Assembly (NCBI GenBank): GCA_963760795.1
Contig: CAVXEP010000025.1
Coordinates: 125,404 to 189,403 of the forward strand
Reading direction: 5' to 3'
DNA length: 64,000 nucleotides
DNA from: an uncultured delta proteobacterium
GTDB taxonomy: Bacteria > Desulfobacterota > Binatia > UBA9968
The position numbers and the translations under genes are program-made. How positions within the stretch are numbered: position 1 is the first letter of the stretch; every line of letters begins with the position of its first letter. Positions 59,300 to 64,000 of the stretch are shown piece after piece. Below the pieces are notes generated by a model, which saw only the letters and a list, made by a program, of their open reading frames with translations, was not told the origin of the DNA and did not search any database.

Positions 59300-60271
59300 A
59301 TGACGAAAGTAATTTTCGGTTTGCTAATGGCGAGTGTCCTTCTGTACAAATGTTGCACCTGCCGAAGCGCAGCAGGCTGGAAAATCTTCCGCATAGGTTT
59401 CCTCGATCCAAGCAATGCTTCCACCAGTGCGGTCCGCTTGGAGGCGTTCTGGCAGGAGATTCGCAAGCTTGGATGCGATCGACGGTACAAACATTGCCAT
59501 CGAGTCGCGGTTTGCAGAGGGAAAACAGTGACCGACTACGGGAGCTAGCGGCGGAGCTGGTTCGACTCAAAGTAGATGTGATCGTCGGTGCATCGACGGC
59601 GGCAGTCTTGGCGGCCAAAAGCGCCACCACTACCATCCTCGTCGTGATGACGACGTCTTCGGACCCGGTGGGTGCAGGTTTGATTGCCATTCTTGCGCGG
59701 CCGGGCGGCAATGTCACAGGGATGTCGGGATTAACAGTGGAGCTAAACACCAAAAGGTTAGAGATACTGAAAGATGCAGTTCCAAGCTAACCCGAGTTGG
59801 GCTCCTGCGATCGTCGGGAAACTCGCGCGGACGCGGCGAACCTTGAAATGCAGCCAACGGCGCGGGGGCTGGGCCTAAAACTGGAGGAGATCAGAGAAGT
59901 TGGACCCGAAAAGTTTCGACACTGCTTTCGCGCAACCGCCAAGCAAACGCAAGACGCTGCGATAGTGCGGTCCGGCTCGTTCACCCATTTTCGCCAACGA
60001 CAGGATTGTCGAGCTTGGCGGCAAATATCGATTCCCTGGCTACGTCGAAGAGGTCGCTCTGGTATACTCATGGGCTAGGACGCCGACCGGCTAAAGTCCT
60101 TCGGCGCGCGGCGGTTTATGTCGACAAGATCTGCGAGGCGCCAAACCGGCGGATTTGCCGGTGCAGCAGGCGACAACGTTTGAGCTCGTCATCAATCTGA
60201 AAACCGCCAAGCAGATCGGCCTGACGATACCGCCGAACGTGCTGGTGCGGGCGAATAGAGTCATTCGGTGA
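59300..60271 (+). pseudogene. PF04392-like SBP with many frameshifts (pseudogene or low-quality sequence)
   Basis: KIFRIGFL, ARPGGNVTG, KRLEILKD, conserved 3-prime end. Confidence 0.65.
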
Positions 60272-60348
60272 AGAGGGTATGAGCCAACAACATTTTGGCT
60301 CCGCAGGGTCGCTTTGGGGGAAAGTTCGTCGTTCGCGGAAGATAGCGC

Positions 60349-60734
60349 TTACCAACGGAGGGTGCTCTGTCTCTGCCGTCCGATTTCCCAGAAAGCTATG
60401 TTCTCCGTCGAGACTCGGATGACCTTTCCGTTGCGCTTGGCTCTGTTGTTGAAGTGAGAGTGACGTAGCAGCTTGGAAATGTACTGGGCAGTTTCCATCA
60501 CAGGCACTGTTAACGCCACAAGACAATAGTTGGCATGGCGCAACGGCGCGCGATAAAAACCTAAACGCGAGTAAAAAACGTTGGCTGTTTAGTCGCATGC
60601 AAATACCTAAGAATTTCTTGTTGATCGTCCCACTCGGGTCGCCCGACTTCGAAACCGACTTGGCGAAAGTGAATGCGGCGGCGGCGCAGCCGCTGCGCTT
60701 GGTCGTGAGCAATATTGTGATCCAGAACGATCAC
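60349..60734 (-). CDS. PIN-like toxin (DUF5615-type), frameshifted
   Basis: GTG start overlapping the upstream stop: MIVLDHNI..EWDDQQEI..TFFTR..RHANYCLV. Confidence 0.6.
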
Positions 60735-60979
60735 GCGGCGGTTTTACGTCGCGCCGGGATTTCTCTGACAATGCCGCGGCGGGTCAATGCCAGCGCCTCG
60801 CGCACCCCCTGCGCCGTGATCAGGCCGCGATATTGCCGGGCGATGGCGTCAGGCGTGTACCACGCTTTGGTCAATTCAACTGCATCGGATACCAGAATTC
60901 GCGTGCCGCGAAAGATCAATCGCCCATTGCAAACACGGGTATCCGCCGCCAAGTGTTTACCGATCTCTATGCGGGCCAT
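60731..60979 (-). CDS. DUF433 family antitoxin
   Basis: DTRVCNGRLIFRGTRILV..VREAL; AAGGAGG RBS. Confidence 0.85.
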   Translation of the reverse strand: MARIEIGKHLAADTRVCNGRLIFRGTRILVSDAVELTKAWYTPDAIARQYRGLITAQGVREALALTRRGIVREIPARRKTAA

Positions 60980-61053
60980 AAGCCATCTACCTCCTTGGCA
61001 AAGTCTACATCAACACCACCACGCGATCAAAAGCTGTGAGTGGCGCCTAACAG

Positions 61054-61417
61054 TTGGACCGATGCTGCGGTTGGCACTCTTCACAGCGACCGATTATCTT
61101 TGCCACAGCAATACTGTGTTGTGTGGAACGAGCTCGGTTCGTGGATCTGGCGGCAAAACATCGCCTGCCGGCGATGTACAGCCAGGGAGACTTTGTCGAG
61201 AGCGGCGGCTTGATGTCCTACGGAGCCGATCAGACGGAACCATACAGACGCGCCGCGGTGATGGTCGACAAGATCCTCAAAGGAACGAAGCCAGCCGACA
61301 TTCCGGTCGAGCAGCCGACACAAGTTCGAGTTCATCATCAATCTGAAAGCAGCGAAAGCGATCGGCCTCACGATCCCGCCAAATGTGCTGGTGCGGGCGG
61401 ACAAGGTGATTAAGTAG
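61054..61417 (+). pseudogene. 3-prime remnant of a PF04392-like SBP
   Basis: [43 protein letters not shown]; 5-prime part absent. Confidence 0.7.
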
Positions 61418-61438
61418 GCAAGGGGCGAGTGTTCGGAT

Positions 61439-61466
61439 GGGCCGAGTCACGCAGGTCGGCCCCTAC
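61439..61466 (-). repeat. GTAG-type REP-like palindrome
   Basis: Minus strand GTAG-GGGCCGAC-CTGCGTGAC-TCGGCCC. Confidence 0.6.
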
Positions 61467-61531
61467 ACGCGTTGGACAATCGAAAATCCAAAACTTGTCC
61501 TGAGCGAATGCGCAGGATCTTAGGATGACAT

Positions 61532-62617
61532 ATGCCAAACAAAATCTTAATCGTCGACGACGAACCGTTTAATCTCGATCTGCTCGAACAAGAGCTGATG
61601 GAGTACGAATATGTCCTCGAGCGCGCCACCGATGGCATCGACGCGCTGGCGAAGGCTGATAGTTTCAGTCCGGACATCATCCTGCTCGACTACATGATGC
61701 CGAGGATGAACGGCCTCGAAGTCGTTAGGGCGCTACGGCAGAGCGAGCGCCACAAGAGCGTGCCGGTGATCCTCTTAACCGCCAAAGCGACCCAGGAAGA
61801 CAAGGTCGCCGGTCTCGACGCCGGCGCCGACGATTATGTCACCAAGCCGTTCGATTCTTTCGAGTTATTAGCGCGGGTGCGCGCCATGCTGCGCATCAAA
61901 GAGCTGCACGACCAACTGGGCGAGTGGAATCGCACGCTGGCGGAGAAAGTCCAGCAACAAGTCGGCGAGCTGAAGCGCATGGAGCGTTTGAAACGCTACC
62001 TCTCGCCGCAGATCGCCGAGACCATCCTGGAGAAAGAAGAAAACCTGTTCAGAACCCATCGCCGCGAGATCACCGTGGTATTCCTCGACTTGCGCGGCTT
62101 CACGGCGTTCTCGGACAATGCCGAGCCCGAGGAAGTCATGGACCTGCTGCGCGATTATCACGCCGAGATGGGCAAGCTGATTTTCAAATTTGAAGGCACA
62201 CTGGAACGTTTCGTCGGCGACGGCATCGTGGTGATCTTCAACGATCCGCTGCCCTGCGAAGACCATGGCCGCAAAGCCGTCAGCATGGCGATCGAGATGC
62301 GCGATCGGGCCAAAGAACTGCGTATCGCTTGGACGAAGAAGGGCTACGATCTCGACCTCGGTGTCGGCTTGGCCACCGGCTACGCGACCCTGGGCACCAT
62401 CGGTTTCGAGGGACGCATGGACTATAGCTCCGTCGGTAATTTGCCAAATCTCGCGGCGCGCATGTGCGCCGAGGCCAAGGGCGGGCAGATCCTGACCGAC
62501 CAAAAAACCATGAGCCGGTTGGAAGAGTTCTTCGATAGCGAAGCCTTCGAGGAGTTCCAATTGAAAGGGCTAAGCCGCCCGGTGCGAGTGTTTAATATCC
62601 TCGCAGCGAAGGCGTAG
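61532..62617 (+). CDS. Response-regulator receiver fused to class III adenylate/guanylate cyclase
   Basis: REC; [25 protein letters not shown]. Confidence 0.92.
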
Positions 62618-62984
62618 CGGTAATCTCACGGTGTCACGCTGTCTGCGTCAGAGGTTTCTTTTGCCTTGTCTGCGCCTACTTCAAATCTCGCAACGCGAAC
62701 CAACTGTCCTGCCAGGTACCAAGTGACAGCGATCGCGTTTCCCATCTGAGTTCGCGCCTATCAGCGCGACTTTACCTGCCGCGGATGATTATTTTTCAAG
62801 AATTGGGCGGGCCATCCTTCTCCATCGTCGTTGCGACGCGTCATGAGTGCGATTATACACGAATAAAACAACACGCAGTTAATTTGTAACGCGTCGTTGC
62901 AGGCAAACTTTATCAAGCCATCGTGGTGCAGCGTATAGGAATAGAAAAAATTCTGAAAAAAAATTGTAGAATAGTATTTTTTTC

Positions 62985-63014
62985 TTGACATACCATTAAT
63001 TGTGTCACTATACT
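62985..63014 (+). promoter_or_regulatory. Strong sigma70 promoter
   Basis: TTGACA-18 nt-TATACT with A/T-tract UP-like region upstream. Confidence 0.78.
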
Positions 63015-63128
63015 CTGCGCAGGTACAAAATATGGGAGGGTTGCTGATAGTAAACTGTCTTCGCCTGAGTCAAGCTGTTCTTCCTATCAAGAAAATACCC
63101 GCCCGTTTAATCTTACAAGGAGGTGCTT

Positions 63129-63176
63129 ATGGCAGCTAAGAAAAAGGCCAAAAAGAAAGCCAAAAAGAAAAAGTAG
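63129..63176 (+). CDS. 15-aa lysine-rich micro-protein MAAKKKAKKKAKKKK
   Basis: Perfect AAGGAGGT RBS 4 nt before ATG; mixed AAA/AAG codons. Confidence 0.65.
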   Translation: MAAKKKAKKKAKKKK

Positions 63177-63262
63177 TTAATTAATTTGTGGAGTTGTGGT
63201 GGTGGTGGAATAAACCCTCCTTACTCTCAGGCGACCAGATAACCGTTCTGGTTATCTCTCAC

Positions 63263-63302
63263 AGAAGCCCTCCGGAAATGATTCGGGGGGCTTTCTGCTT
63301 TT
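63263..63302 (+). terminator. Rho-independent terminator
   Basis: AGAAGCCCTCCGGA...TTCGGGGGGCTTTCT followed by GCTTTT. Confidence 0.65.
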
Positions 63303-63463
63303 AGAAACCCCGTTTCCGAAATTTTTCACCGTATCAGTACACCATGTCGGCAGCATAGCGGCGAGTTTTACTCCGAAACCGGCCTAGGAACAAATTTACC
63401 GCGCCGTTGGTTCAGTCAGCATGTATTGCGCCGCTTTATACAGTTGGTTAGAGTGCGATGACA

Positions 63464-64000
63464 ATGAAGATGAAGCCTCGGCATCTATTCTTCGCGCTTT
63501 GTCTGGTGCAGCTGATTTTTTTCGACTGGACACCTCACGACGGCGACGCCGCAGAGTCCTCAGCCAAAGTCGACTACAAAGCGGTGCCGATTCTCCAGCC
63601 GATGAAAGAGGTCGCGCCGACACCGGAAATCAATCTCACCACTCCCGACGGCAAAAAAATCTCCTTGCGCGACTTTCGCGGCAAGGTTGTCATGTTGAAT
63701 TTCTGGGCCAGCTGGTGCGTCCCTTGCCGCGAAGAGATGCCGGCGATGGAAAAGCTCTATCAAGAATTTAAGGACAAGAACTTTGTCATCCTCGCGGTGG
63801 CGGTCAAAGATCGCAAACAAGACGCCGTCGATTTCGTCAAGGAACTCAAGCTCACCTACCCGATCGCCCTCGATCCCGACGCTAAAGTCGGCCAGGAATA
63901 TGGCGCTTGGGGATTGCCCGCGACCTATCTCATAGGTTCCAAAGGCGAAGGTTTAGCGCGCGGCTGGGGACCGGCGGACTGGCATAGCGCAGGCGCGCGT
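63464..64000 (+). CDS. TlpA/ResA-family thiol-disulfide oxidoreductase (runs off window)
   Basis: Manual translation: signal segment, LRDFRGKVVMLNFWASWCVPCREEMP, GLPATYLI. Confidence 0.9.
   Translation, partial: MKMKPRHLFFALCLVQLIFFDWTPHDGDAAESSAKVDYKAVPILQPMKEVAPTPEINLTTPDGKKISLRDFRGKVVMLNFWASWCVPCREEMPAMEKLYQEFKDKNFVILAVAVKDRKQDAVDFVKELKLTYPIALDPDAKVGQEYGAWGLPATYLIGSKGEGLARGWGPADWHSAGAR

What the first reader, a model, noticed from the sequence alone, without database searches (positions are those of the whole stretch)
62985..63302. Stand-alone structured RNA with a pseudoknot-like frame around a 15-aa poly-lysine micro-ORF
Seen: a near-consensus promoter, a perfect RBS, the ORF MAAKKKAKKKAKKKK and a terminator. 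Two perfect long-range complements flank the ORF: GGAGGGTT (63035-63042) with AACCCTCC (63213-63220), and TCGCCTGAG (63061-63069) with CTCAGGCGA (63226-63234). Their order is A-B-ORF-A'-B', so they form a pseudoknot or alternative pairings rather than a nested stem. Local hairpins occur at 63046-63059, 63078-63093 and 63237-63257. Inference: an RNA scaffold that loops out a tiny translated cassette encoding a protamine/histone-tail-like peptide (nucleoid- or ribosome-binding), or a dual-function RNA. I do not recognise it as tmRNA, 6S, RNase P or SRP.
Basis: partly seen in the sequence, partly recalled or inferred. Interest (0 to 1): 0.82.

Follow-up and report, generated by a model that had tools for sequence, protein, structure and literature searches.

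The report
Tiny poly-lysine gene with self-pairing mRNA
This is a very small, apparently strongly expressed gene for a 15-residue lysine-rich peptide, conserved across an uncultured soil bacterial lineage, whose messenger RNA is closed by pairing between its two untranslated ends.

Summary
All quoted motifs sit at the stated coordinates. The ORF is 63129-63176.

The locus is a conserved stand-alone gene, not a chance pattern. BLAST finds it in 35 of 61 related genomes. A covariance model finds it in 74 of 151 genomes of the class. Record titles name mostly Candidatus Binatia or Deltaproteobacteria MAGs.

The micro-ORF is truly coding. Differences fall 261:287:1723 on codon positions 1:2:3, and all indels keep the frame. 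The peptide is 12-19 aa in this family and 16-40 aa in others (for example MAAKKKATKSKAKKKAPAKKGGAKKKK).

Helix B (63061-69 with 63226-34) is supported class-wide, with compensatory changes and wholly different helices at the same place in divergent families. Helix A (63034-42 with 63213-21) is invariant, with little covariation. Its order does make a pseudoknot, or an alternative to pairing of the 3' box with the Shine-Dalgarno. Hairpin 63237-57 and the terminator covary well. The two small 5' hairpins are not conserved.

No Rfam, Pfam or NCBIfam family matches. RNA-library contigs from four studies cover the element.

Best reading: an abundant mRNA for a polycationic micro-protein, closed by 5'/3'-UTR pairing as in hbs or icaR. 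The peptide's target is unknown.

The parts
62940..63014 (+). Promoter: an A/T-rich upstream block (UP-element-like), -35 TTGACA at 62985-90 and -10 TATACT at 63009-14. The transcription start is inferred near 63021.
   Evidence: The scan scores 11 of 12. TTTTTTCTTGACATAC is nearly invariant in the 35-sequence alignment. A similar promoter precedes the homologue L172, outside the class. The start site is inferred, not mapped.
63034..63042 (+). Box A, GGGAGGGTT: an SD-like, G-rich 5' box and the 5' arm of helix A.
   Evidence: GGAGGG is invariant in 60 of 60 rows of A1. The A:A' duplex is -16.1 kcal/mol.
63061..63069 (+). Box B, TCGCCTGAG: the 5' arm of the long-range closing helix B.
   Evidence: The B:B' duplex is -17.0 kcal/mol.
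63098..63104 (+). Conserved C-rich block CCCGCCC upstream of the SD. Its role is unknown.
   Evidence: It is conserved as CCCRCC in A1. No supported partner was found.
63117..63125 (+). Shine-Dalgarno AAGGAGGTG.
   Evidence: AAGGAGG is invariant in A1. It complements the own 16S 3' end CACCTCCTT. The duplex with the 16S end is -15.1 kcal/mol.
63129..63176 (+). Micro-ORF MAAKKKAKKKAKKKK (15 codons plus TAG).
   Evidence: the ORF is present in all homologues, indels keep the frame, and differences by codon position are 261:287:1723.
63188..63209 (+). G/U-rich tract (GTGGAGTTGTGGTGGTGGTGGA) with four or more GG runs.
   Evidence: A G4-like motif occurs in 69 of 100 homologues against 14.8 expected from shuffles. 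In other families the tract lies in the 5' UTR.
63213..63221 (+). Box A', AACCCTCCT: an anti-SD-like, C-rich box and the 3' arm of helix A. It can alternatively pair with the SD.
63226..63234 (+). Box B', CTCAGGCGA: the 3' arm of closing helix B.
63237..63257 (+). Hairpin H: an 8-bp stem with loop GTTCT.
   Evidence: Seven of 8 pairs change on both sides, and 97.5% of cells pair.
63264..63302 (+). Intrinsic terminator: a 13-bp stem followed by a T run.
   Evidence: Eight of 13 pairs change on both sides.

Best explanation
**What it is.** The locus is a single-copy, stand-alone, strongly expressed protein-coding gene of about 280 nt. Its product is a polycationic Lys/Ala micro-protein. The peptide is 15 aa here, 12-19 aa in this family and 16-40 aa in other families of the class.

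**How the mRNA is built.** The mRNA is closed into a loop by a long-range helix between the 5' UTR (B) and the 3' UTR (B'). B' lies directly before a structural hairpin and the intrinsic terminator. The enclosed part holds the SD, the ORF and the G/U tract, and is predicted to be open.

**The second contact.** In the window's order, the C-rich, anti-SD-like box A' next to B' pairs with the SD-like box A near the 5' end. A lies 5' of B, so the two helices cross and form a pseudoknot. In other families the equivalent C-rich box pairs in the nested way with a G-rich box just 3' of B.

**Shown.** The ORF is under peptide-level selection. The boxes are conserved and helix B covaries. Hairpin H and the terminator covary.

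**Inferred.**
- The pairing ties both ends of a very short mRNA together, protecting it from ribonucleases and coupling its life to translation, as in B. subtilis hbs.
- A' could also mask the SD when A is unavailable, as in icaR.
- The peptide binds a polyanion (nucleoid DNA, or rRNA/ribosome).
For: **Conservation**
- BLAST finds the element in 35 of 61 genomes: f1 32/36, f2 2/5, f3 0/19.
- A 3'-UTR-only pattern found 66 loci in 185,579 species genomes. Of these, 63 carry the K-rich ORF upstream.
- The covariance model hits 74 of 151 genomes of the class.

**Coding**
- 36 of 36 rows keep SD, ATG and ORF.
- There are 20 distinct peptides among 60 sequences, all in frame.
- Pairwise differences by codon position are 261:287:1723. 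In the 16-aa group (n=20) the variable sites are 1, 1 and 13.

**Helix B**
- 96.1% of cells pair in A1. One pair changes C:G to U:A in 3 sequences.
- In the model-fitted class alignment A2, 97.1% of cells pair and 6 of 9 pairs change on both sides. Slid controls pair in 30-58% of cells over the whole structure.
- Divergent families carry different helices at the same place:
  - L143: 17 bp.
  - L146: 15 bp.
  - L154 GUGCCUGUG/CACAGGCAC against L156 GUGUCUGUG/CACAGACAC.

**Helix A**
- 94.8% of cells pair. U:A changes to C:G in L062 and L074.
- Both arms are present in 32 of 32 BLAST-derived homologues.
- The duplex energy is -16.1 kcal/mol, against -11.7 for SD:A'.

**Other structure**
- The inner loop has no consensus structure.

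**Stand-alone**
- Neighbours differ between genomes: TlpA-like plus CcdA-like, an alpha/beta hydrolase, or others.

**RNA**
- 6 metatranscriptome runs hold the stretch.
- Contigs from runs of four studies cover the element. One comes from a run of only 8.8 million letters.
- In 2 runs the flanks have no cover.
Against: - Single-sequence folding is not significant.
  - The z-score is -1.43.
  - Only 15 of 99 homologues beat all 40 shuffles.
- The cores of A and B never vary, so pairing there rests on conservation, not covariation.
- A and A' are SD-like and anti-SD-like. They could be kept for other partners (the 30S subunit, the SD).
- L073 and L076 have a C.A mismatch in helix A.
- A2 is fitted to the model's structure, so its counts lean towards that structure.
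- 34 of the 60 rows of A1 were found with a pattern that fixes part of A' and B'.
- RNA contigs cannot show transcript ends, strand or level.
  - Two runs (X12, X16) also cover the promoter region.
  - DNA in the libraries is not excluded.
- No test of stability, translation or peptide binding was possible.
- The element was not found in f3 (0/19, 0/8 and 0/8).
Confidence: 0.7

Rival explanations
1. Translational switch. Box A' alternates between box A (SD free, translation on) and the SD (7 bp, translation off, possibly an RNase III substrate). Helices A and B would then not form a static pseudoknot.
For: SD:A' can pair in 94% of cells across A1. SD:A' is -11.7 kcal/mol against -16.1 for A:A'. 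The icaR precedent is a 3'-UTR UCCCCUG box that masks the SD (PMC3868564, abstract read).
Against: SD:A' shows no covariation. In f4, f7 and f13 the C-rich box pairs with a separate G-rich box next to B, leaving the SD free. f11 and f12 lack such a box.
Confidence: 0.2
2. Box A is a 5' stabiliser (STAB-SD type). It binds the 16S 3' end of a 30S subunit and blocks 5' decay. A' is conserved for another reason, and A and A' do not pair in vivo.
For: GGGAGGG lies about 14 nt from the inferred start with no usable start codon after it. Its duplex with the own 16S end is -10.9 kcal/mol. Other families carry repeated GGAGG/GGUGG runs at the 5' end.
Against: A:A' is stronger, at -16.1 kcal/mol. The double change in L062 and L074 keeps the pair. 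The STAB-SD paper was seen only as an entry in a reference list.
Confidence: 0.15
3. Leader-peptide attenuator. Stalling at the 11 Lys codons controls read-through of the terminator into downstream genes.
For: A short ORF rich in one amino acid is followed by hairpins and a terminator.
Against: Downstream genes differ between genomes and none is lysine-related. No antiterminator alternative is conserved. The peptide keeps its Ala spacing. Longer relatives have the motif KKKAPAKKK.
Confidence: 0.04
4. Non-coding regulatory RNA in which the ORF is incidental.
For: The UTR blocks are very strongly conserved.
Against: Substitutions are concentrated at third codon positions, and indels preserve the frame. 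The SD is invariant and perfect. There are 0 Rfam hits.
Confidence: 0.03

Closest known systems
B. subtilis hbs mRNA, which has a 5'/3'-UTR interaction (Braun, Durand and Condon 2017, PMC5737220; abstract and outline read)
   Same: A short, highly expressed mRNA for a small basic nucleic-acid-binding protein. It has a strong SD and a long-range 5'UTR-3'UTR helix (14 bp in hbs; 9-17 bp here).
   Different: There is no sequence relation. Here the ORF is only 12-40 codons. This family has a second, crossing helix. The ribonuclease effects are untested, and the RNases of this lineage are unknown to me.
S. aureus icaR mRNA, in which a 3'-UTR anti-SD box pairs with the SD (Ruiz de los Mozos et al. 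2013, PMC3868564; abstract read)
   Same: A C-rich, anti-SD-like box in the 3' UTR (UCCCCUG there, CCCUCCUU here) that is complementary to the mRNA's own SD.
   Different: Here the box has a stronger partner (box A) outside the SD. Repression and RNase III cleavage are not shown.
STAB-SD of B. thuringiensis cryIIIA (Agaisse and Lereclus 1996; seen only in a reference list, content recalled)
   Same: An SD-like sequence close to the 5' end that does not start translation.
   Different: Here it is complementary to a conserved 3'-UTR box. 30S binding is untested.
Very small basic ribosomal proteins bS22, bL37 and eL41 (titles and abstract starts listed; details recalled)
   Same: A tiny, highly basic peptide. 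The promoter resembles those of the translation apparatus (UP-like block, and a G+C-rich stretch after the -10 in several families).
   Different: The peptide here is of low complexity and varies in length (12-40 aa). There is no sequence similarity and no ribosome data.
Lys/Ala-rich tails of histone H1 and of bacterial HU-type proteins (recalled; one example seen here in L170)
   Same: The same composition. An HU-like 122-aa ORF in another family of the phylum starts MAAKKKAVKKTAKKAKKAAPVKKG.
   Different: Here the tail-like peptide stands alone. The own genome's HU/IHF-family gene that was examined (1 of 2 hits) has no such tail.

Membership tests
Any Rfam family (tmRNA, 6S, RNase P, SRP, riboswitches, leaders) | A match to a curated covariance model | tested here: not met
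   0 matches at E<=1 in window 60000-64000. 0 matches at E<=0.1 in five distant homologues.
mRNA with a 5'/3'-UTR interaction (hbs/icaR type) | A translated ORF between the two UTRs | tested here: met
   Codon-position bias 261:287:1723, frame kept through indels, and an invariant SD.
mRNA with a 5'/3'-UTR interaction (hbs/icaR type) | Conserved base pairing between the 5' UTR and the 3' UTR | tested here: met
   Helix B: 96-97% of cells pair, and 6 of 9 pairs change on both sides in A2. Different-sequence helices occupy the same place in divergent families.
mRNA with a 5'/3'-UTR interaction (hbs/icaR type) | The pairing changes RNase cleavage or translation | not testable with these tools
   Needs mutants and decay or reporter assays.
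H-type (crossing) RNA pseudoknot | Two helices in the order 5'a-5'b-3'a-3'b, both conserved | tested here: met
   Order A, B, A', B'. Both helices can form in 94.8% and 96.1% of cells.
H-type (crossing) RNA pseudoknot | Both helices form at the same time | not testable with these tools
   The linkers are 18 nt, about 143 nt and 4 nt, which looks sterically possible by my own estimate. No probing data exist.
Leader-peptide transcription attenuator | A fixed downstream operon for the amino acid whose codons are repeated | tested here: not met
   Downstream genes vary and are unrelated to lysine.
Pfam / NCBIfam protein families | A profile match | tested here: not met
   0 families for the 30-aa and 27-aa relatives at E<=10. 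The 15-aa peptide is too short for these tools.
Type I toxin-antitoxin | A hydrophobic membrane peptide plus an antisense RNA | tested here: not met
   The peptide has no hydrophobic stretch. The only minus-strand promoter-like site, at 62991-62963, points away.
Small ribosomal protein (bS22/bTHX-like) | Presence in purified ribosomes, or sequence similarity | not testable with these tools
   phmmer with the 30-aa relative gave 0 hits. The lineage has no cultured member that I know of.

The most novel reading that the evidence does not exclude
The Lys/Ala peptide would be a previously unrecognised, very abundant structural polycation of this lineage. It would be the smallest known ribosome-bound or nucleoid-bound protein (12-15 aa in this family). 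It would feed back on its own mRNA by binding the G/U-rich, G-quadruplex-prone tract or the pseudoknotted UTR frame, so that free peptide shuts off its own synthesis.
Probability: 0.15. Interest if true: 0.85.

Novelty: new variant of a known kind. Interest (0 to 1): 0.62.

Why it matters
- **Hidden from annotation.** Genes this short are, from general knowledge, below the size cut-offs of usual gene callers. A conserved and apparently very abundant product of a widespread uncultured soil lineage is therefore probably missing from annotations.
- **A selected ORF of only 12-15 codons.** It shows purifying selection on an ORF this short, and a peptide family whose length drifts from 12 to 40 residues while its charge is kept.
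- **A natural series of architectures.** The mRNA offers nested and crossing versions of 5'/3'-UTR closure. These can be used to test how end-to-end pairing stabilises or gates very short bacterial mRNAs.
- **Possible new cell component.** If the peptide proves to be a ribosome or nucleoid component, it would add a new class of minimal structural polycations.

Tried and rejected
**Leads that gave nothing or were rejected**

- **h45 mimic.** The consensus of hairpin H (AAGGTAGCCGT) equals an 11-mer of the own 16S helix-45 strand. I rejected a mimic for three reasons.
  - The window's own H differs.
  - H covaries freely.
  - H is unrelated in other families.
- **Second ORF.** A possible ORF over the G/U tract and A' has variable stops (by eye). 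Rejected.
- **Helix between CCCRCC and the G/U tract.** No consensus structure lies inside helix B. Left open.
- **Single-sequence significance.** It was weak.
- **phmmer with the 30-aa relative against 1.84 billion proteins.** 0 hits. The query is short and of low complexity, so this says nothing.
- **ESM Atlas.** It holds the exact sequence. The nearest clusters are unnamed hypothetical proteins of 22, 37 and 43 aa. An HC2 hint scored only 0.80. This is a lead only.
- **Literature strings of the peptide.** 0 papers. I made no other search for prior description, so 'not in print' rests on that one search.
- **f3 genomes.** A loose K-rich pattern gave 3 hits, all inside an unrelated coding region on the other strand.
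- **RNA contigs.**
  - The X17 and X19 contigs both stop at 63268, inside the terminator stem. This may be an assembly break at a variable loop, so I draw no 3' end from it.
  - Parts without cover are not evidence.
- **Tools and files closed.** Supplementary files of the cited papers were not seen.

**Unpublished genomes**

- L043 and L044 are from G004 and G035.
- They are 2 of the 60 rows of A1, so they enter. They also enter.
- They were left out of A2 and.
- G140 enters only the tally.
- No conclusion depends on any of them, and no sequence of theirs is quoted here.

Full report
**1. Observation**

- -35 TTGACA at 62985-90, an 18-nt spacer, then -10 TATACT at 63009-14. This scores 11 of 12.
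- SD AAGGAGGTG at 63117-25.
- ATG at 63129, 15 codons reading MAAKKKAKKKAKKKK, and TAG at 63174-76.
- Box A, GGAGGGTT, at 63035-42 (GGGAGGGTT from 63034).
- Box B, TCGCCTGAG, at 63061-69.
- Box A', AACCCTCC, at 63213-20.
- Box B', CTCAGGCGA, at 63226-34.
- A hairpin at 63237-57.
- A terminator stem at 63264-94 followed by a T run.

The SD is a perfect 9-nt complement of this genome's own 16S 3' end, GGATCACCTCCTTTCT.

Taken alone, the sequence is not remarkable.
- The MFE z-score is -1.43, and 15 of 200 shuffles fold as well.
- Rfam gives 0 matches at E<=1.

**2. Conservation and range**

The window ends at a contig end.
- A second copy lies on contig C26. It is 100% identical over the element and 97% identical over 3.7 kb.
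- Relatives mostly have one copy. I therefore read the second copy as assembly redundancy rather than a duplication.

BLAST with the 318-nt element finds it in 35 of 61 genomes, counting the own genome.
- Family f1: 32/36.
- Family f2: 2/5.
- Family f3: 0/19.

A pattern made only from the 3' UTR (part of A', B' and the hairpin loop) hit 66 loci among one genome each of 185,579 species.
- 27 records are titled Candidatus Binatia.
- 26 are titled Deltaproteobacteria or delta proteobacterium.
- 6 are titled Syntrophobacter(aceae).
- 7 carry other labels.
- 63 of the 66 carry the lysine-rich ORF upstream.
- Of the other three, 2 are chance hits and 1 is cut by a contig end.

A covariance model (R1) hits 74 of 151 sampled genomes of the class.
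- f1 8/8, f2 2/2, f11 17/17, f12 15/17.
- f3 0/8, f5 0/7.

In a phylum sample, one further family (f63) has a 34-aa relative behind a very similar promoter.

**3. The ORF is coding**

- All 36 rows examined keep SD, ATG and a K-rich ORF.
- In 60 distinct sequences there are 20 different peptides of 12-19 aa, and every length change is in frame.
- Pairwise nucleotide differences fall 261:287:1723 on codon positions 1:2:3.
- In the 16-aa group (n=20) the variable sites number 1, 1 and 13.
- Other families of the class have longer products of 16-40 aa. Examples are MAAKKKATKSKAKKKAPAKKGGAKKKK and MAAKKKAKKAKKKSKAKKKAPSKKKGSKKK, with a recurrent KKKAPAKKK.
- Selection therefore acts on a polycationic Lys/Ala peptide, not on a fixed fold.
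- Pfam and NCBIfam have no family for the 30-aa and 27-aa relatives.

**4. RNA structure in this family (alignment A1: 60 sequences)**

| Element | Cells paired | Pairs changed on both sides | Note |
|---|---|---|---|
| Hairpin H | 97.5% | 7 of 8 | |
| Terminator | 84.1% | 8 of 13 | |
| Helix B | 96.1% | 1 of 9 | 6 pairs never vary; C:G to U:A in 3 sequences |
| Helix A | 94.8% | 1 of 9 | 3 pairs never vary; U:A to C:G in L062 and L074 |

- L073 and L076 show a C.A mismatch at the helix A position that changes in L062 and L074.
- 34 of the 60 rows were found with a pattern that fixes part of A' and B', so invariance of those arms is partly by selection of rows.
- The 5' arms were not in the pattern. 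In the BLAST-derived set both arms of both helices are present in 32 of 32.
- The stretch inside helix B has no consensus fold (-0.4 kcal/mol).
- Duplex energies in kcal/mol:
  - A:A' -16.1.
  - B:B' -17.0.
  - SD:A' -11.7.
  - SD with the 16S end -15.1.
  - A with the 16S end -10.9.

**5. The class-wide view settles helix B and puts helix A in context**

- In f11 and f12 the same core, CUCGCCUGAG/CUCAGGCGAG, closes the mRNA, although the rest has diverged.
- In more distant families, a helix of different sequence sits at the same place, just before the hairpin and terminator:
  - 17 bp in L143.
  - 15 bp in L146.
  - GUGCCUGUG/CACAGGCAC in L154 against GUGUCUGUG/CACAGACAC in L156.
  - UCCGCCUAGGG/CCUUAGGCGGA in L148.
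- In the model-fitted alignment A2 (99 matches), helix B pairs in 97.1% of cells and 6 of 9 pairs change on both sides. Slid controls pair in 30-58% of cells over the whole structure. The fit to the model favours the structure.
- In f4, f7 and f13 a C-rich box (CCCUCUC, CCCUUCG) directly 5' of B' pairs in the nested way with a G-rich box directly 3' of B (read by eye).
- In the window's order the C-rich box A' is at the same place, but its only G-rich complement, A, lies 18 nt 5' of B. The same contact has therefore become a crossing one.
- This supports A:A' as a real contact. It does not prove that A and B coexist.

**6. Expression**

- Six metatranscriptome runs from five studies hold part of the stretch.
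- I laid four of them, each from a different study. All are kept as contigs.

| Run | What was seen |
|---|---|
| X17 (8.8 million letters in all) | One contig at 63044-63268, with no differing letters in the laid piece |
| X19 | One contig at 63060-63268, word depth 53.5 |
| X16 | Covers 62950-63230 at depth 26.8-199; flanking pieces at 2.9-12.6 |
| X12 | Covers 62975-63735 at low, even depth |

- The element is thus in RNA libraries, and in two runs it is the only part of the 1.2-kb stretch that is covered.
- Contigs cannot give ends, strand or level, and the runs were chosen by this stretch. X12 and X16 also cover the promoter. I take this as moderate support for an abundant transcript and nothing more.

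**7. Context**

- A response-regulator/cyclase gene often lies upstream.
- The downstream genes vary (names are from my reading of the translations):
  - a TlpA-like thioredoxin plus a CcdA-like protein in this genus;
  - an alpha/beta hydrolase in distant members;
  - other genes elsewhere.
- This argues against a leader of a fixed operon.

**8. Mechanism**

Shown:
- a translated micro-ORF under selection;
- a class-wide closing helix;
- a structural hairpin and a terminator.

Inferred:
- Closure of the 5' and 3' UTRs protects a very short mRNA and ties its fate to initiation at the strong SD.
  - In hbs, a 14-bp 5'/3'-UTR interaction modulates RNase Y cleavage (PMC5737220, abstract).
- Box A' could mask the SD when A is not available.
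  - In icaR, a 3'-UTR box pairs with the SD region and creates an RNase III substrate (PMC3868564, abstract).
- Box A could also act as an SD-like 5' stabiliser (STAB-SD, recalled).
- The promoter points to growth-linked, high expression. It has an A/T-rich upstream block, a consensus -35 and, in several families, a G+C-rich stretch after the -10. That reading is recalled knowledge, not a test.
- The peptide most likely binds a polyanion. My odds are:
  - nucleoid DNA, about 0.4;
  - ribosome or RNA, about 0.3;
  - something else, about 0.3.
- One lead for DNA: an HU-like 122-aa ORF elsewhere in the phylum begins with the same kind of sequence (L170).

**9. Novelty**

- I found no Rfam, Pfam or NCBIfam family and no paper holding the peptide strings (the only such search).
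- The kind of mRNA, one with 5'/3'-UTR pairing, is known.
- What appears to be new:
  - a conserved poly-lysine micro-protein gene;
  - its range across a whole uncultured class;
  - the shift from nested to crossing architecture.

Rows from the unpublished genomes G004, G035 and G140 entered some counts, as listed under Tried and rejected. No conclusion rests on them.

Noticed in passing
window 60240-64000; own genome contig C26:27176-30931: The last 3.7 kb of the contig recurs on another contig at 97% identity, and the element itself at 100%. The window ends at the contig end. This is probably strain-level assembly redundancy in a genome with 6% contamination.
   Followed up: partly
window 60100-60285 and 61139-61430: Two short stretches match several dozen places in the own genome at 70-88% identity. 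The translations look like C-terminal pieces of a much-expanded ABC substrate-binding protein family (name recalled, not tested). Here they appear as fragments.
   Followed up: no
window 60561-60979, minus strand: Two small overlapping ORFs of 82 and 57 aa look like a DUF433-type antitoxin with a small partner. This is from recall only; no profile search was run.
   Followed up: no
window 63188-63209; 5' UTRs of L122, L142 and L154-L156: A GGU-repeat tract with four or more GG runs, which is G-quadruplex-like. It occurs in 69 of 100 homologues against 14.8 expected from shuffles. It lies in the 3' UTR in this family and at the 5' end in others.
   Followed up: partly
L170 (G364, another family of the phylum): An HU-like 122-aa ORF has an N-terminal Lys/Ala tail that begins like the micro-protein.
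   Followed up: no
L172 (G311, family f63, outside the class): A 34-aa K-rich ORF sits behind TTTTTTCTCTTGACATAC, nearly the same promoter as in the window. The gene family therefore reaches beyond the class.
   Followed up: partly
A1 consensus of hairpin H; L175 1520-1545: The consensus AAGGTAGCCGT of hairpin H equals an 11-mer of the own 16S helix-45 strand. I judged this a coincidence.
   Followed up: yes
L154-L156, L145 and L149, 3' UTRs: Families f7, f13 and f18 share an extra 3'-UTR hairpin, GAGGCCAUUCAC..GGCC. Its 5' side is complementary to the 5' G/U tract. This may be a further long-range contact.
   Followed up: no
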